Below are positions 1-42,111 of a DNA stretch of 64,000 bases, piece by piece; the first letter of the stretch is position 1, and the number at the start of each line of letters is the position of its first letter. A model generated the notes under the pieces. That model was not told where the DNA came from, made no database searches, and was given only the letters and a program-made list of their open reading frames with translations. The position numbers and the translations under genes are program-made. Source of the DNA: Octopus vulgaris (taxonomy: Eukaryota); the NCBI GenBank assembly GCA_951406725.2, contig OX597815.1, positions 70,742,001 through 70,806,000 of the forward strand. Reading direction: 5' to 3'.

Positions 1-832
1 TCTTGGCTCCCCCACACCGAAGAAGGCCAAGCAAAGCAAGTACACCAGGAAGCTCATGATGATCCCCTTTTTCGACAGCAAAGGCATAATCTACACCCAC
101 TGGGTTCCCTTTGGCCAGAGCGTCACCAAAGAGTATTTTGTGGAGGTTTTGAGGGAGTTCGGGGAAAGATTTCCCTACAAAAGGCCAGAGCTCTACCAAT
201 CGGGTCGGTGGCATCTACACCAGGACAATACACCAGTCCACAATTCCATCCTGGTAACCAACTACTTGACAGAGATGGGCATTAAAACTGTCCCTCAACC
301 GCCCTGCAGTCCAGATCTTTCTCCCTGTGACTTTTGGTTTTTCTCCAGGCTGAAAGAGAAACTCAAAGGTAGACGTTTTGATGACATTGAGAAGATAAAG
401 GAGGCTGTGACAAAGGTCCTGGACACTTTCACTTTGGAGGACTTTCACGGAGCTTTCACCAAGTGGCTAGAGCGCTACAACAAGTGCATTGAAGTGAAAG
501 GATCCTACTTTGAAGGAGAATAATTTTGTACCTCTTTGAAACTAATAACTATCTCTTATTTCTTTATTGCCCACAAGGGGCTAAACATAGAGGGGACAGA
601 CAAAGGGATTAAGTCAATTACAACGACCCCAGTGCGTAACTGGTACTTATTTAATCGACCCAGAAAGGATGAAAGGCTAAGTCGACCTCGGCGGAATTTG
701 AACTCAGAACGTTAAGACGGACGAAATACCGCTCAGCATTTCGCCCGGCGTGCTAACGTTTCTGCCAGCTCGCCGTCTTCAACTAATAACCATCTCTTCT
801 GCAAAGGTCTCAAAACTCTTGAATGCACCTGG
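1..832 (+). mobile_element. mariner (DD34D) transposon, 3' part: catalytic domain ORF 56-523 and right TIR, interrupted by a SINE
   Basis: ORF has HLHQDNTPVH, PPCSPDLSPCDFWFF (YSPDLAP-D motif) and ends KCIEVKGSYFE*. The terminus ...GAATGCACCTGG is followed by TA at 833-834. Confidence 0.9.
558..780 (-). mobile_element. tRNA-derived SINE (octopus OK-like family) with 18-bp target-site duplication
   Basis: Minus strand begins GGCGAGCTGGCAGAAACGTTAGC (A box) with a GAGTTCAAATTCC B box. Flanked by AACTAATAACTATCTCTT (540-557) and AACTAATAACCATCTCTT (781-798). Near-identical copies at 14973 and 49231. Confidence 0.85.
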
Positions 833-850
833 TACATTGATTGAACAATC

Positions 851-1048
851 ATGTCTGACGCCACTGCACCCGCTTCTGTTGGTCCTTTTAAGGTCACTGC
901 TGGTAGAAAAGGAAAAAAACTAAGAAGGTACACGTTAAACCAAAAACTGAAGGAAGCTAAGAAAAGTGGTACCAAGAAAGCAGCCACGAAACTTATAGCC
1001 CCAAAGGAAGCCGCCAAAACACCCAAGGCCGCAGCAAAGAAAAAGTAA
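851..1048 (+). pseudogene. H1: histone H1 paralog lacking the globular domain (65-aa Lys-rich ORF, still open); pseudogene or tail-only basic protein
   Basis: Start CAATCATGTCTGACGCC-CTGCACCCGC and end AAGAAAAAGTAAACGAACTTTACA match the H1 gene at 26725. MSDATAP joins directly to ASVGPFKV (= ASGSYKL of the intact gene). Confidence 0.8.
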
Positions 1049-1118
1049 ACGAACTTTACATAAAAAAACAACAAACATTACAAAGTGACTTGTAAAATAT
1101 AATTGTATAAAATAATTC

Positions 1119-26724: not shown

Positions 26725-27303
26725 ATGTCTGACGCCGCTGCACCCGCCGCACCCGCTCCCGCTGCACCCAAAGCTAAGAAAGTAAAAAAGGTGAAGAAAG
26801 CTTCGAGCCATCCTCCCTACATTGATATGATTAAGGACGCCCTTGTGAAGAGCGGAGAAAGAAAGGGTCTCTCTCGTCAAGGGATCGTTAAACGCATTGG
26901 AGCCAGCCACAGTGTAAATACCCAAGATAATGTCATCCTGAAACAAATTAAATTGGCGATTAAGAGAGGTGTCGCCAACAATGTTCTGAAACAGCTGAAA
27001 GGAGTTGGAGCTTCTGGTTCTTATAAACTTGCTCCTGGTAAAAAAGAAGAGGCCAAGAAGAAGAAGAAGAAGCCGGCATCAGCTAAACCAAAAGTGAAGA
27101 AACCTAAGACAGCCGCTAAGAAAAGTGGCGCTAAGAAAACTAAGAAAAGCCCAGCAAAGAAGGCAGCTAAGAAATCAGCCGCTAAGAAACCGGCTAAGAA
27201 AGCTGCTAAGAAACCCGTTAAGAAACCCGCTAAGAAACCCGCCGTTAAGAAAACTGCCGCCAAGAAGAAGCCTGCCAAGAAGGGTGCAGCCAAGAAAAAG
27301 TAA
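26725..27303 (+). CDS. H1: linker histone H1 (H1/H5 family), intronless, 192 aa, divergent variant
   Basis: Ala/Pro/Lys N-tail, winged helix HPPYIDMIKDAL...ERKGLSRQGIVKRI...KLAIKRGV...LKQLKGVGASGSYKL, Lys/Ala/Pro C-tail, ATCATG start context and upstream H1 promoter elements. Confidence 0.97.
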   Translation: MSDAAAPAAPAPAAPKAKKVKKVKKASSHPPYIDMIKDALVKSGERKGLSRQGIVKRIGASHSVNTQDNVILKQIKLAIKRGVANNVLKQLKGVGASGSYKLAPGKKEEAKKKKKKPASAKPKVKKPKTAAKKSGAKKTKKSPAKKAAKKSAAKKPAKKAAKKPVKKPAKKPAVKKTAAKKKPAKKGAAKKK

Positions 27304-35215: not shown

Positions 35216-36313
35216 TTAGATTCAATGCCCCAGCAGCTAGTTAAATGTCATGACATTGCTGTATTTTTACTAATGATCTTGCATGATGCTCAACATCGAA
35301 TGGCTCCTAAGTGGGTCGACGATCAAACTGGACGTAATATGACAATAAACATAATGGTCATACATGCGAACGCTACAAGTTGGTATCCATCTGTCTGTCT
35401 GTCTGACACACATATTTATACACATACATACATACATACATACATACATACATACATACATACATACATACAGAAATCTTGAAATAAAACTGAACAATAA
35501 CATACATAAACACCACTCAGTTTGGTTTTTAACCAAGTTCAATATGTATGACGCAGACAATAATTTTTGTTTTCTTTGTGATTAGTTATAACACCGCTTA
35601 CTGGCGGGAATATTTCTAGTCCGTTGTACTAGGACTTATTTTATCGAATGCGAAAGGACAAGCATATATTTTCGTTTTGAAATTTCTGCTCTATCATAAA
35701 AATTTAACCGATCCGCCACCTTCAGTAAACCGTAAATTTTACAGTATTTAGCTTCTGATATTTTGCTGTTTTCGTCTGAATTCTATCATATTCAAATTTA
35801 CTCCCCCCCCTCTCTCTTTTATCGACCCGTGGGTTCTTAATTTCATACCAGTGGCAGAATTGTTAGCACGCCGGGTAAAATGCTTAGTGGCATTTCGTCC
35901 ATCTTTTTTTTGTTTTGAGTTCAAATTCCGCTGATTTGATGCATAAAAAACAATGATGAAATTAAATATAAATAGATGTATTCATTTACTTTCTATATCT
36001 TTTTGGACGCCTATTAATGAATACGTGAATGAAAAATAATAAATTTACTGATTTTAAAAAATTAATGAAAGTAAAAAAAAAGTAAACAATCTTGTCTAAT
36101 CGCTAATGTTAGACAACTCTTTACAATACATTTGATTTTTACACGAGACCTATAAGAGTTATCTTTCTTACATTGTTACACAGGTCATGCAATAAGAAAA
36201 AATTCGCACGAATATGTATATAAAAACAGGCTAATCTCTCCAACTGCCCCAAGCAACCACCCACCCATCCATCCATCCATTCACACACACACACACACAC
36301 TGACGTATGCATA

Positions 36314-37852
36314 CGAAGGTTGTGCCGAAACTATTGCACATATAGGCAAAATGTTTTTATTAACTGGCATAGGTTTTTCAAATTGGACATGTTGCAGAAT
36401 AATTCTTCGTCTATACAAAGATACTACTTAACGTAGTCTACATCACAAGCGTTGCTCTTGCGTCATCATTGCACCCAAGCTCCTGAATACTCTTTGAAAG
36501 AATTCAAGGGCGTACTGTTGTACCTATTTCTTCACAATGATTTCCATCTCGTTTGTGTCATCAATTCGCTGTCCCCGAAGACTATCCGTCGTTGGGTCGA
36601 AGAGGTGGAAGTTGGAGGGCGCCAGGTCCGGGCTGTTCGGTGGATGGAAGACTGCCCAATTTTCTGGTTGCGTGATTTGTTGCCAAAGATATATGCTGCA
36701 ACGGTGAATGTAGTTCGTTTTCAGACTCATGTTTAGTCTCATTCTCTTGATGGCTTCCCTAAACTTTTAGAGAGTCTCAAGGTACCGCTCGCAGTTAACA
36801 GTGCAACCATATTGCAGAAAACAAAGGAGAACGACGCCAATTTTTTCTTAAGAAACTGTCATTATGACTTTCACTGCCAATCGCTTTCTCTAGAACTCCT
36901 GAGAAGGTGAAAAAGATGTGACGCATTCCACGGTCAGAAAGTTCATTTACGGATCATATAGATACGTCAACGATTCATTCATTGTCACCAGATCAGGGAA
37001 AAGTGTCTTTAGTTTAAGCTATATCACCAGTTAATATGCTGTGTTTCTAAAAACCCGCTATTTCTTTTGATAAGCTCTCTTCCCTTGCCCAAGGCTTTAT
37101 GCGCATTGCTGTTTTCATTTCTGCGTACGTGAAAACCTGATTCGAAGCATCTCCCCCCACCCATATTCACGGATGAAATGCCTTTAATCACCCAGGTTAG
37201 AGTCAAATGGTTAAACAAGGTATCACGAGCTTGAGCGAGAAGAGCGGCTCATCTCATCAGGCCATTGTCAAATACATCTTGAAGAATTTCAAACTGCCGG
37301 CTAATGAGAAAGCTGTCACTATCCAAACTAAGAAGGCTTTGAGAAGAGGTGTTGCTACTGGATTGTTGAAACGCTGCCAACAGATCAGAGTAGATTTTCA
37401 TTCCTTTTTTCTTGAAATCGGGTGTCAGCTGCCGAAAAAAGCCATTTACACAGACTTTCAGATACCCAAAGTCTTCCATCATCTCCTGTTATGCATTCTT
37501 ATCATAGTATTGCGCAACAAGCTCGCTGATTTGTTTCAGCGGCCACAGTTGATGGTCTCCCACTGTGGTTTCTCTTCAATGCTGTTTCCCCTTCTTTAAA
37601 CTTCCTAATCCAGCTGTGCATACTGCTAGTGTCAATGGTGTCATCTAAATAATCTGCAGTCATCTGTGGATGTAAGACACCCTACACACCTCGCTCTTCA
37701 AACACTCAATGATTGCACGCTGCCTTTGTTTAGAACGTATTATTCACTTGTAATGAAGAACGTTCATGCACACACACACACACACACATGGTCAGTAGAA
37801 GGTTAGCTTTTTGTACCATTATCCAAGGCAAACAGTTTGGCAAGACTTGACA
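36314..37852 (-). mobile_element. degenerate mariner transposon containing an H1 insert
   Basis: Minus-strand pieces RQRAIIECL, SWIRKFKEG, FGYLKVCV..RQLTPDFK (WVPRxLT region) and HPPNSPDLAPSNFHLF. TA-CGAAGGTTGTGCCGAAACTATTGC end with a decayed counterpart at ~37828-37852. Confidence 0.8.
37186..37372 (+). pseudogene. H1: isolated histone H1 winged-helix fragment from a different H1 paralog
   Basis: NHPG*SQMVKQGITSLSEKSGSSHQAIVKYILKNFKLPANEKAVTIQTKKALRRGVATGLLK. Ungapped against the 26725 gene, 19/56 identical from Met. The Tyr of HPxY is now TAG. Confidence 0.85.
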
Positions 37853-38599
37853 GGACATTTAATTTAGCTATATAATAAAAGGTTTAGAAAATACTTTTCA
37901 GTATTTATGCAATTGTTGATAAATAAAACTGAAATGTTAGAGGTGCGGTAGTATAGGATGAGCTTAGTTTCAATGTGGTTGGACTACAAGAAAGTTTTTG
38001 CCTCTGTCTCCACTCATGGATATAGAAGCTTTTCGACTTGCTAAAGTTTCAGTGAGCATAGCCAAAGCTATAGCTGACCTGACTTCATCATGGGCCACCA
38101 CCTTGAAATTAAATACAAGGTGTGATTGTATTATCTCTGAGAAAACAGTATCGCAGAGGTATATTCCAAAGGGACAGCTTCTCTGTGATGTTGTTTATAC
38201 TTTCTGTAAAGTCTGAAGAATATCTCATTGGTTCACAAGGAAACAGAAATACTAAAATTACACAGTTTCTTTGTGGACGACTGGAAACTGCATGCCAAGA
38301 ATATACATGCGATGAAAAAGATCCTTGACCTAGTTACAACATTCTCAAAAGATATAGGGTTGGATAATTGGTTAGGATAAATGCTGCTATATGGTTGTGA
38401 AAAGAGGGAAAACTATGAACCTGACAAGCAGCATCTCCATCAATGACTGTTTCTAATGAGGAATGTTACAGGTTCCAAGGAAGAGATGAAAACATATCTT
38501 ACTATGGTACCTGTAACAAGGCACGTTCCAATAAATAATATTACATCCGGATAAAGAAAATATGGACCTCTAAATTCTCTGCATTCAATAAAACAGTGT

Positions 38600-38850
38600 C
38601 AATAGCCAGCTGGAGAAGATGTTCTCCTGGGGCTACAAGCTACAGTAGCATCCACCCTTAGTGGTTAGCCATATTTAAGTGGCAAATATACTTCACATAC
38701 TTTAGGTTACTGTTTAGTTTACTTTGCGTTGATCTACGAGAGTAAATTTTCTTAAGGAATGATGTGAATTTAGTGTTGGTTTCTTGTAAAAATGCAATTG
38801 CCTTCGTTTCGTCGCTGATCACATAAAAATCTTTAATCAACATCTTACGG
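38600..38850 (-). mobile_element. DNA transposon remnant: CCAGCTGG-family arm next to a possible Merlin/ISXO2-like transposase start
   Basis: 38605-38695 matches the 28820-28900 arm. Minus-strand MLIKDFYVISDETKAIAFLQE resembles ISXO2-like N-termini (weak). Confidence 0.35.
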
Positions 38851-39553
38851 GTTTTTAGAAATTGAAAGGTAAAAGGTAACCTAAAATTATCTCCCTTGTA
38901 GATCACAAGCCAAGCAGCACTCCTTTTTTCTTCTTTCTCTGTTTCCCTTCAACTAATCGCTTGAAAGCGTTACAGTTAAATTTTCCTTTACTTCACATCA
39001 TGGACGCGTCTGTCTCCTCCTCTTTTTCACCCTCCCTATTTTTCTCTCCTTTTCTTTCTCCCTCTTTTTACTTAAACACGTATGTGTGTGTTTGTGCGCG
39101 CGTATCTGTATGCATGCACATAGATACACACTCATTTATTACACTGCGTTCTATTTTCTCAAACAGTTAACTTATTTGTTGTTTTGGTGATGGGGAAGTT
39201 CTGCAGGATTCGGCCTGATGTAATAACAACATCAACTAAAACATAAAAGTTTAAGTTTCACTTTCACTTAATTTCTTACGCACAATCATCATCCATCCAC
39301 AAACCAGATACTTTATATCAGATATGCACAGATCCTATAAACGAATACCTCGGAAACATCCTTTCATGAGATCAGGACAGTTTAGACCATTTTACAGTCA
39401 CTACATATCTCTGGTATTATTTTGTTCCTACGTTTCATGAAATTACATTGAATAAAAAAATCAAAAAAATCCAGTTCAATATCTTTTGTCTCCCTTGAAC
39501 AGTTGTTGATATTTTCTTCGAGTTATTTCCCTTACAAAAAGTTATATTTTTAA

Positions 39554-39631
<78 letters not shown>

Positions 39632-40392
39632 GTGCGTGCAGAACGATTTCGTCGGTCAGAGCGACGAAACCGTTCTGCACGCACTCGTGCAGTGTCCAAC
39701 AATTTTCGACCTGTGGGATTATGTCGAACGTGTGGGACGAGTCGGTTTATCAGCCGAGTCTATCGTCAATACTGTCACGCCTCCTTCCTTCAAACGTGAA
39801 GGAAGAGCTATTTTCATCATCCTTGTAGCTATGGCGAAAGAATGTATCTGGTGGACGCGTCTGAAAGGATTGGAGGCAAACACTTTCCTCTCTGGTCAAT
39901 CTCTCATCAACTTCTTCAAGTATCACTTGGAAAGGAAAGTAAGAGTAGAGAGGCAAGTTTTGTCTAGCGAATGTTTTAAAAAAGATGGGTGAATGTAGCA
40001 AGGATGACACGTATGAATGACGAAGCCACCTTGAGCATAATCCTATGAACCCGGAAATTTAAAACAGAGGGTTACCTACTTGCAAATAAATGTGGTAACA
40101 TGTAAACAATATTGACCGAGGTTACCGTGGTCTTTTCCGTAGGCTTTTCTTCTTCCCACGGATAAACCTTATCTGCTTCCCCCTTTAAACCTTACATCAT
40201 GACACTGCGATACATGATCCCTATTGATCGTTTTTTCTTTGTTTTTGTTTTTCTTTTTTCTTTTCTTTTGTTTCTTTTGTTTCTTTTTCTTTTTTCTTTT
40301 CTTCTTCCCCTTTTACGATTCCTTTTGATCGAAAACCTTTTTTTTGTAATCTGTCCCGTCTGTGTGCAGCCCTGTGTGGCTAATAAAGAAAC
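39632..40392 (+). mobile_element. 5'-truncated Tx1/L1-type LINE 3' end embedded in a (TATC)n tract
   Basis: DETVLHALVQCP...LW...AKECIWWTR (C-terminal zinc-knuckle region), pyrimidine-rich 3'UTR, AATAAA at 40382, (TATC)n on both sides. Confidence 0.8.
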
Positions 40393-40393
40393 A

Positions 40394-40475
<82 letters not shown>

Positions 40476-40476
<1 letters not shown>

Positions 40477-40675
40477 TTTCACTTGTTTCAGCCACACTGG
40501 AGCATCACCTCGAAGGGGTTTAGCCGAACAAATCGACGTGTTTATGTTTTTTCTAAACTTTACTGCCTTTTGTATAGGTCTCCTGTCGAAACCGATAAGT
40601 TACGGGGATGTAAACAAACTAGCATCGGTTGTCAAGCAGGTTTGTGAGCGTGTGCGTGCATGACAGACAGAAAGG

Positions 40676-40721
<46 letters not shown>

Positions 40722-40872
40722 TATCTGACAGTCTTCCATAGTTTCCGTCTACCAAATTCACAATGCATTTTTTGGCGAGAGCCCATAGTGAAAGACATGG
40801 GTTCACGCAATCAAACTGAATCCGAAACTCGTGGCTGCAAAGCGAGCTACTTAACCAAATATCCATGCCTGT
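40476..40872 (-). mobile_element. OR-like SINE with internal (CA)n
   Basis: Reverse complement of the 60464-60922 copy, decayed. Confidence 0.7.
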
Positions 40873-40953
40873 GTCGATAAAGCGTACATGCACTGGTGCG
40901 TGCATGCGCGTACACACACACAGTACGTAGTACATACATACATACATGCATAC

Positions 40954-41065
<112 letters not shown>

Positions 41066-41368
41066 ATTTATCATACACTGAAATTATTATTACACGATGA
41101 AGTTTACGAAACGGCCGCACCCCTAACAATGACAAGTGGTTAAATAAGTGGTCTCATATGTTGAACCGTTAATCTTTCCACCTCTTTTTTTTCACTCCGT
41201 TTATTTCTTTTCATTCTTTCTCCGTTTTTTTTTTTACCTCTTAATACTTTCTGTTGAAGAGAGTTAGCTCGAAACGTAAAAGTCTTTTCCATTCTTCCCG
41301 AGCGTTATACTAATACACCTGCTTGTTGTTCTTACACCAGTCTTCGTCTTTTGTTTTCTGTAAATTTA

Positions 41369-41407
<39 letters not shown>

Positions 41408-42111
41408 CTAGCAGTATAGCCCGGATTTGCTCGGATCATCAAGTTCCTTTTTTCAAAGCAAACTAAGTAACGTCGACGTCGTTGAAATTAGTAAACTTTT
41501 GGCTGAAATTTTGCAGACAATTTGATTGGGAAATCCCATAAGGAATCGTTTTATCGATTTATTCCACTCATCGATTGTTTTTTTTTTTTTCGTTTTTGGA
41601 GAACTGAAAACATTCAAAGATCCCATGACTCCTAGGGTAATGCTGGCATCACCTCCTACCCGAGTAATACCATCAATTGAAGCAAATTTGGCACCCGGAC
41701 GTAAGTTCTGTAAGAGGAATAGAGAAGCCTACCTTCTCCCGCAGAGATGTGAGAGTCAGCTCTCTCCTTTTCAAAACATCGACAGTTTCGAAACATTGTT
41801 TACAAAATGCAAATTTGGCACCCGGACGTAAGTTTTGTTAGTAGAATAGAGAGTCCTACCTTCTCCCACAGAGATGTGAGAGTCAGATCTTTCCTTTAGA
41901 AAACATGAACAGTTTCGAAACGTTGTTTACAAAATAATAGCCGATCGTTTGCGAAGGAGCGTGTCTACAGTCAACATGTAGGTCTTTTGCTCTGGTAGCC
42001 TCTGCTTTCTCCCATGTTCACGCACGACCAGCTATATATCGCTGAGTAGAGCAACGGATTCAGCTAATTTGGAAATTAGTTGTGGAGAAACGGAGAATAT
42101 CGTTTATATTG

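What the first reader, a model, noticed from the sequence alone, without database searches (positions are those of the whole stretch)
37180..37380. H1 winged-helix segment captured antisense inside a mariner transposase
Seen: ~190 bp encoding helices I-III of an H1 (NHPG*SQM...GLLK) interrupts the minus-strand transposase between ...SDLLAAF and ..AF. There is no TSD or poly(A), a few transposase bases appear lost, and the junctions could share microhomology (TTGAAAC on the right, GCCTTT on the left). It is only 19/56 identical to the intact H1 10 kb away, so the donor is another, more canonical paralog. Inference: templated gap-repair capture of a host gene piece (Pack-type behaviour, seldom described for animal mariners). 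If amplified, such elements could generate antisense RNA or piRNA against H1.
Basis: partly seen in the sequence, partly recalled or inferred. Interest (0 to 1): 0.75.

Follow-up and report, generated by a model that had tools for sequence, protein, structure and literature searches.

The report
Histone scrap patched into dead transposon
One broken mariner transposon in this octopus-type genome holds a single-copy 355-base patch made of two oppositely oriented pieces of a histone H1 gene 85 kb away, likely left by a one-off DNA repair accident well after the transposon had inserted, which is an ordinary and already described kind of event.

Summary
The H1 piece is real and interrupts one mariner element, but the insert is about 355 bp, not 190. 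It has two parts from one intact H1-delta-like gene 85 kb upstream. One is coding bases +67..+259 (86% identical); the other is 3'-flank bases +1293..+1446, joined in inverted orientation (72%). The junctions show 3-7 nt microhomology and no clear TSD or poly(A). Contigs from 3 of 4 public runs bridge all three junctions. No second copy was found, and the 5' TIR is missing. The mariner is 20% diverged from its family consensus; the insert differs from its donor at only 12 of 120 non-degenerate sites (p=0.007). Capture therefore likely came after transposition. Best reading: a local, microhomology-guided templated insertion with one template switch, into a dead element. Tan et al. 2021 describe this for animal TIR elements (370 Pack-TIRs, 115 TcMariner, nearly all single-copy), so it is not rare in animals. 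It fails their both-TIR criterion. Antisense or piRNA function is untested and unsupported. The scan has no note at this locus, but noted similar captures in other genomes (e1-8611353, e1-7808160, e1-10357364).

The parts
36312..36415 (-). 3' terminal inverted repeat of the mariner (about 105 bp), with TA at its outer end; the only TIR left
   Evidence: matches both TIRs of the family consensus; score 145 against a shuffle maximum of 75 for 630 bp
36312..37009 (-). 3' half of the decayed mariner (catalytic domain with stops and frameshifts); consensus positions 603-1324
   Evidence: 145 mismatches in 703 aligned bases against the consensus of 56 copies
37010..37017 (.). junction 3: eight bases not clearly assigned, in place of at most 7 mariner bases; possible 3-nt microhomology beside them (37018-37020); A-rich on the minus strand but not a poly(A) run
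   Evidence: by eye the alignment is ambiguous between a loss of up to 7 bp and a duplication of about 5 bp
   Evidence: 72% identity, E 1.2e-11; only other match in the genome to the donor's 1176-bp 3' flank; 36 mismatches in 154
37175..37180 (.). junction 2 (inversion point): 4-nt microhomology GAAA shared by both donor pieces, plus 2 extra bases
   Evidence: chance of 4 or more for random donor-donor joints 0.022
37181..37372 (+). segment B: copy of donor H1-delta-like coding bases +67..+259 (most of the globular domain), with a stop codon at 37198-37200 and a 1-nt deletion near its start
   Evidence: 166/193 identical to G000:C2:70692978-70693170; next best paralog 62%; Pfam PF00538
37366..37372 (.). 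junction 1: TTGAAAC, exact to the donor and 6 of 7 to the mariner if its decayed CpG is counted
   Evidence: CpG state at consensus 588-589: CA 18, CG 7, TA 6, TG 4 of 42 copies
37373..37760 (-). 5' half of the same mariner (HTH region, consensus 144-595); the 5' TIR is absent and a (CA)n run follows
   Evidence: 80 mismatches in 399; no TIR match in 37770-42000 above shuffle level or elsewhere in 204 kb

Best explanation
A single broken mariner copy contains 355 bp copied from two places in an H1 gene locus 85 kb upstream, likely written in during one DNA break or stalled-fork repair event after the element had already inserted and decayed. Shown: one element, donor identity, two inverted pieces, short microhomologies, at most 7 bp of mariner unaccounted for, single copy, donor intact, insert less diverged than the mariner. 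Inferred steps: a break arose inside the relic. The free end annealed by a few bases to the H1 gene and copied about 195 nt of one strand (+259 to +64). It then switched by 4 nt of microhomology to the opposite strand 1 kb downstream, copied about 155 nt (+1293 to +1446) and rejoined the mariner end. Transposase is not needed, and the patch has since decayed neutrally.
For: Donor found at 86% and 72%, same contig, 85 kb away. Chance of landing within 87 kb of the donor at random is 6e-5, or 6e-4 for any of 9 H1 genes. Halves are contiguous in the consensus (595 to 603). 41 of 56 copies span the site without such an insert, and 0 of 58 mariner loci match the insert. Age: insert 12/120 non-degenerate differences against mariner 126/626, Fisher p=0.007. 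Three of the 12 are donor-lineage changes by the O. bimaculoides ortholog, giving 9/120, p=0.0007; outside CpG-prone sites 7/81 against 74/373, p=0.016. The mariner decays equally at 0-fold and 4-fold sites (20% and 18%). Segment A lies about 520 nt beyond the main poly(A) site at +774. Cis bias, microhomology, small gap, later capture and single copy are the pattern Tan et al. give for transposition-independent gap filling.
Against: The age gap is smaller by the two-lineage measure: segment A 36/154 = 23% (CI 17-31%) against mariner pairs at 32% (29-35%), one-sided p=0.012, and synonymous divergence in segment B is 0.29. Capture is thus at roughly one third to 60% of the element's age, not pinned. 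Gene conversion from the donor could mimic youth. The geometry (inverted 5' piece, then sense 3' piece) is also that of twin priming, and low-depth contigs in 3 of 4 RNA-type runs cover segment A. Junction 3 is ambiguous. Microhomologies are read through about 10% decay; random 3-nt matches occur 5-6% of the time. No outgroup with the empty element at this locus was seen.
Confidence: 0.75

Rival explanations
1. RNA route: a rare read-through H1 transcript was reverse-transcribed, by LINE twin priming or as a cDNA patch, and inserted into the relic.
For: Order and orientation fit a 5'-inverted retrocopy as described in PMC12016303. The donor mRNA is polyadenylated and abundant; low-depth contigs cover segment A in X4 (22 against 1784), X9 (3) and X10 (2.4), while 574-834 upstream of the gene is empty in all four runs. 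Junction 3 is A-rich.
Against: The main transcript ends at +774, not +1446. No poly(A) run or clear TSD, whereas 96% and 70% of processed pseudogenes in PMC12016303 have them. 1 kb is missing at the inversion point. Landing 85 kb from the donor is not expected of retroposition. The low-depth contigs may be DNA, and X19, the only run on record as RNA, lacks them.
Confidence: 0.11
2. The template was not today's donor but its decayed neighbour duplicate (G000:C2:70706331-70708400), copied or captured as broken pieces by end joining.
For: The duplicate is of similar age (promoter 92% identical) and now lacks most of the globular domain and all of the 3' flank, the parts found in the insert.
Against: About 17 bases are present in both duplicate and insert, so it was not a simple cut-out. 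By eye they share no derived change in that overlap. Most of the comparison is impossible because the duplicate has lost these parts.
Confidence: 0.08
3. One reading: capture by gap repair linked to transposition of an active mariner, giving a mobile Pack element.
For: The insert lies inside a TIR element with microhomology junctions. The upper confidence limit for segment A (31%) overlaps the range of mariner pairs (29-35%).
Against: The insert is younger than the element at non-degenerate sites. No second copy. The gap is under 1% of the element and internal, which Tan et al. take as against excision repair. The closest family members found are only 65-83% identical. The 5' TIR is missing, though when it was lost is unknown.
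Confidence: 0.05
4. Two independent mariner insertions trimmed a resident H1 gene, or the junctions are an assembly artefact.
For: The region holds several H1 genes and two H1 pseudogenes hit by another mariner family.
Against: The halves are collinear, on one strand, contiguous within 7 bp and equally diverged (20.1% and 20.6%). Single contigs of X1, X5 and X8 bridge all three junctions.
Confidence: 0.01

Closest known systems
Single-copy Pack-TIRs of animals made by transposition-independent gap filling (Tan et al. 2021, PMC8277862; e.g. Pack-Tigger1)
   Same: Non-TE sequence of 100-5000 bp between two halves of one TcMariner element; single copy; donor on the same chromosome; microhomology; small internal gap; host element about 20% from consensus (their median 18.3%); capture after insertion; exonic filler (13.4% of theirs).
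   Different: 5' TIR missing; identity to the donor below their 90% cut-off; filler in two inverted pieces (355 bp from a 1380-bp span), which their 80-120% length filter would exclude; donor at 85 kb, whereas 57% of theirs lie within 15 kb.
Class 2 templated sequence insertions (Onozawa and Aplan 2016, PMC5110952)
   Same: Patch copied from elsewhere at a break; no TSD or poly(A); microhomology, microdeletion and a few untemplated bases; donor intact.
   Different: Those come from distant sites and are argued to be RNA-derived and polymorphic. This one is local and old, and was present in all 4 runs laid.
FoSTeS/MMBIR complex insertions with iterative template switches (Gu et al. 2016, PMC5120786; abstract only)
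   Same: Several template pieces, microhomology at the junctions.
   Different: Those are large clinical rearrangements; this is a 355-bp old germline event.
5'-inverted (twin-primed) retrocopies (PMC12016303)
   Same: Inverted 5' piece followed by a sense 3' piece.
   Different: No poly(A), no clear TSD, 3' end about 670 nt past the main poly(A) site, local insertion.

Membership tests
Pack-TIR (Tan et al. 2021) | Non-TE sequence of 100-5000 bp flanked by two parts of the same TIR element | tested here: met
   355 bp between consensus positions 595 and 603
Pack-TIR (Tan et al. 2021) | Both flanks reach at least 10 bp of the element's termini (both TIRs) | tested here: not met
   5' half starts at consensus position 144; no 5' TIR found; criterion from section 14
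Pack-TIR (Tan et al. 2021) | Unique parental copy | tested here: met
   86% to one H1 against 62% to the next; segment A matches one other place. A decayed duplicate of the donor cannot be excluded as template
Pack-TIR (Tan et al. 2021) | Pipeline cut-offs for young cases: 90% identity, length ratio 80-120% | tested here: not met
   86% and 72%; 355 bp from a 1380-bp donor span
Multicopy (mobile) Pack-TIR / Pack-MULE | Several copies of the loaded element with different target sites | tested here: not met
   Only self and donor in genome searches; 0 of 58 mariner loci; only two loci cover segment B in runs X1, X5 and X8. The searches give lower bounds
Transposition-independent gap filling | Capture later than element insertion | tested here: met
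   12/120 against 126/626, p=0.007; controls; weaker by segment A
Transposition-independent gap filling | Empty orthologous element in an outgroup | not testable with these tools
   No relatives' genomes are held; all 4 runs laid carry the insert or part of it
Class 2 templated sequence insertion | No TSD or poly(A); microhomology or microdeletion; donor intact | tested here: met
   junction 3 is ambiguous for a decayed duplication of about 5 bp
Class 2 templated sequence insertion | RNA-derived template | tested here: inconclusive
   Donor is intronless; segment A lies beyond the main poly(A) site but inside low-depth contigs of 3 of 4 runs
Twin-primed retrocopy | Poly(A) tail and TSD, 3' end at a transcript end | tested here: not met
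   decay of about 10% limits the test
mariner (DD34D) transposon | TA-flanked TIRs, HTH plus DDD transposase with 34-residue spacing | tested here: met
   Family consensus has TIRs of about 105 bp flanked by TA and one long reading frame. Spacing counted by eye, with the third residue at a decayed CpG. Pfam hits are weak and below cut-off: HTH_48 E 0.0018 and Transposase_1 E 0.0032 in 2 of 4 copy fragments. The label DD34D is recalled

The most novel reading that the evidence does not exclude
The patch was copied from a rare read-through H1 RNA by twin-priming-like reverse transcription and written into a break 85 kb from its own gene, i.e. locally biased RNA-templated repair in an invertebrate germ line; the fixed antisense H1 piece might then feed small RNAs against this highly expressed H1 variant.
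Probability: 0.08. Interest if true: 0.55.

Novelty: new member of a known kind. Interest (0 to 1): 0.17.

Why it matters
Little, on the best reading: it is a neutral scar of one repair event. It is a clean, datable mollusc example of post-insertion gene-fragment capture inside a mariner relic, with an extra inverted template switch that the published Pack-TIR filters would have discarded. It could serve as a presence/absence marker among octopus species. It would matter more if the template proved to be RNA or if small RNAs from it targeted H1-delta.

Tried and rejected
H1 at 26725 as donor: rejected (21/62 aa). Other H1 loci of the genome as donor: best 62% (10 loci compared, the insert itself left out). 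Segment A as diverged transposase or a repeat: rejected. Repeat search for TIR pairs or TSDs in 35500-39000: nothing relevant. Search for the 5' TIR in 204 kb: none. Junction-spanning searches for further copies: none. Pfam on 4 window transposase fragments: only sub-threshold HTH hits in one and an unrelated weak hit in another. A 43-nt skip in an RNA-type contig downstream of the donor lies between 9-nt repeats and reads as a deletion allele, not an intron (by eye). Run X11 has no cover at 37040-37137, which proves nothing. Scan notes near this place: none; 'relatives' gave one unrelated bacterial note; 8 of 14 same-genome notes shown for 'histone H1' did not bear on this. Paper searches for octopus H1 or piRNA context gave nothing usable. 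Expression of the insert and piRNA mapping were not tested: both read-laying runs were used for the donor's transcript and for the junctions.

Full report
Observation. Six-frame translation shows NHPG*SQM...GLLK on the + strand at 37186-37371 and decayed transposase frames on the - strand on both sides. The stop-free part matches Pfam Linker_histone at E 5.7e-15.

The insert is larger than reported. A search of the own genome with 37020-37375 gave 3 matches from 3 candidates: itself, 37181-37372 at G000:C2:70692978-70693170 (+, 86%), and 37021-37178 at C2:70694204-70694353 (-, 72%). The first lies in an intact, intronless 180-aa H1 gene (ATG at C2:70692912). The second lies 1.3 kb downstream of that ATG, on the opposite strand. 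The donor's 1176-bp 3' flank matches only itself and the insert (2 of 2 candidates), so this piece is not a repeat. Of 10 H1-domain loci compared, the donor gives 86% and the next 62%. The donor's best protein hit is histone H1-delta of Octopus bimaculoides, 87%, so the genome is octopus-like. The donor has no histone stem-loop in the 200 nt after its stop, unlike four other H1 loci (by eye; motif recalled).

One mariner, not two. I took the top loci of two searches (40 of 199 and 40 of 196 candidates scored, 58 loci besides self), dropped 2 duplicates and aligned 56 copies. The consensus has TIRs of about 105 bp flanked by TA and one long mariner-type frame. The window's 5' half covers consensus 144-595 and its 3' half 603-1324, with 80/399 and 145/703 mismatches. 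41 of 56 copies span the site with no comparable insert, and none of the 58 loci matches the insert. The window copy lacks its 5' TIR. Pfam support for the family is weak (2 of 4 fragments, below cut-off), so the family label rests mainly on the consensus.

Junctions, read along the transposase strand. Junction 1 (37366-37372) is exact to the donor and fits the mariner at 6 of 7 once a decayed CpG is allowed. Junction 2 has 4 shared bases (37175-37178) plus 2 extra; random joints reach 4 in 2.2% of trials. Junction 3 has a possible 3-base overlap and 8 unassigned A-rich bases in place of at most 7 mariner bases; a decayed duplication of about 5 bp cannot be excluded. There is no poly(A) run.

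Reality and copy number. I laid 4 of the 24 runs listed on 36305-37765. One X1 contig spans the whole stretch. X5 (36695-37531) and X8 (36813-37531) bridge all three junctions. X11 bridges junction 1 only by the tool's 31-base rule. The runs come from four studies and four organism labels, and are assembled contigs, not long reads. Segment B is covered only by the locus itself and the donor contig in X1, X5 and X8. Junction-spanning genome searches found no second chimera. These searches give lower bounds.

Age. The mariner copy is 225/1102 (20.4%) from consensus, evenly at 0-fold (126/626), 2-fold (48/222) and 4-fold sites (22/121), as expected for neutral decay from an ancestor close to the consensus. 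Other copies have a median of 19.6%. Segment B differs from the donor at 12/120 0-fold sites (p=0.007). At codons 41, 42, 55 and 68 the insert agrees with the O. bimaculoides protein against the donor, so these are likely donor-lineage changes; three are 0-fold, leaving 9/120 (CI 3.5-13.8%, p=0.0007). Excluding CpG-prone sites gives 7/81 against 74/373, p=0.016. Against this, the two-lineage measures give a smaller gap: segment A 36/154 (CI 17-31%) and synonymous 0.29, against 32% (29-35%) between mariner copies (one-sided p=0.012). Corrected distances per lineage are 0.08-0.14 for the insert and 0.24 for the mariner. Capture therefore likely happened at one third to 60% of the element's age. 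Gene conversion from the donor was not excluded.

RNA or DNA template. On the donor, the high-depth contigs of four RNA-type runs end at +729 to +774, and X9 carries a 22-A loose end at +774 (three runs are guessed to be RNA, one is on record). Segment A lies about 520 nt beyond that site. It is covered only by contigs at about 1% of the main depth or less in X4, X9 and X10, and not in X19. These may be read-through RNA or DNA. The order of the pieces fits twin priming, but the tail, the TSD and the transcript end do not. A random landing within 87 kb of the donor has a probability of 6e-5. DNA-level copying from a nearby template with one strand switch is the simplest account; this step is inference. 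A decayed duplicate of the donor 13 kb downstream of it is of similar age and lacks the same parts. It may have been the template or may stem from the same period of local rearrangement.

Comparison with print. Tan et al. 2021 (PMC8277862; I read parts 1-3 of 10, section 14 and term-search passages; supplements not opened) report 370 animal Pack-TIRs, 115 in TcMariner and only four multicopy. Of the 281 unique single-copy cases, 59.8% are intrachromosomal, 67.6% have microhomology, and the median gap is 4.6% of the element. They already raise antisense transcripts and small RNAs as a possibility. This locus works like their single-copy class but fails their both-TIR, identity and length filters, so I do not file it as a Pack-TIR in their sense. 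Class 2 templated insertions (PMC5110952, passages) share the junction features. For twin priming I saw passages of PMC12016303, and for iterative template switching the abstract of PMC5120786. A search for 'Pack-TIR' with 'mollusc' returned 0 papers, and 'octopus' and 'mollus' do not occur in Tan's main text. Their species list is in supplements that I did not open, so a first mollusc case is not established. Other papers were seen only as search listings.

Function. The piece has a stop codon, no second copy was found, and its host element has lost its 5' end. By eye the longest perfect match to the donor is about 19 nt. Nothing here supports a regulatory role, and its expression was not tested.

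Verdict. A real but ordinary single-copy templated insertion into a dead mariner, with one inverted template switch as its only unusual detail. Interest 0.17.

Noticed in passing
window 557-1100 and G000:C2:70741260-70742840: A near-intact mariner of another family (355-aa open frame; a SINE-like repeat at window 557-772 interrupts its 3' end) ends about 20 bp before the ATG of an H1 pseudogene at window 852 that has lost its globular domain. The H1 lies outside the TIR, so this is not a capture.
   Followed up: partly
G000:C2:70706331-70708400 (L009): Duplicate of the donor H1 (promoter 92%, upstream 81% identical) with a SINE-like repeat and a piece of the same second mariner family before its ATG; its coding part has collapsed and lacks about +84..+411. 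Two H1 pseudogenes of this cluster thus lack the globular domain, while the insert holds only that domain.
   Followed up: partly
G000:C2:70434859, 70613263, 70692912, 70768725 (window 26725): A loose cluster of four intact H1 genes without a visible 3' stem-loop; the donor is polyadenylated. H1 genes on C3 and C21 have the stem-loop.
   Followed up: partly
L002:1435-1974: The H1-delta-like donor changes fast for a histone: 86-87% identical to its O. bimaculoides counterpart, with at least four globular-domain changes since the insert was copied.
   Followed up: partly
L008:1721-2924: Low-depth contigs in RNA-type runs extend up to 1.2 kb past the donor's poly(A) site: possible read-through transcript, separate RNA, or DNA carry-over.
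   Followed up: no
mariner family copies L019-L077: Strong CpG decay in the copies (CA and TG products at the same sites) suggests that these elements were methylated after insertion.
   Followed up: partly
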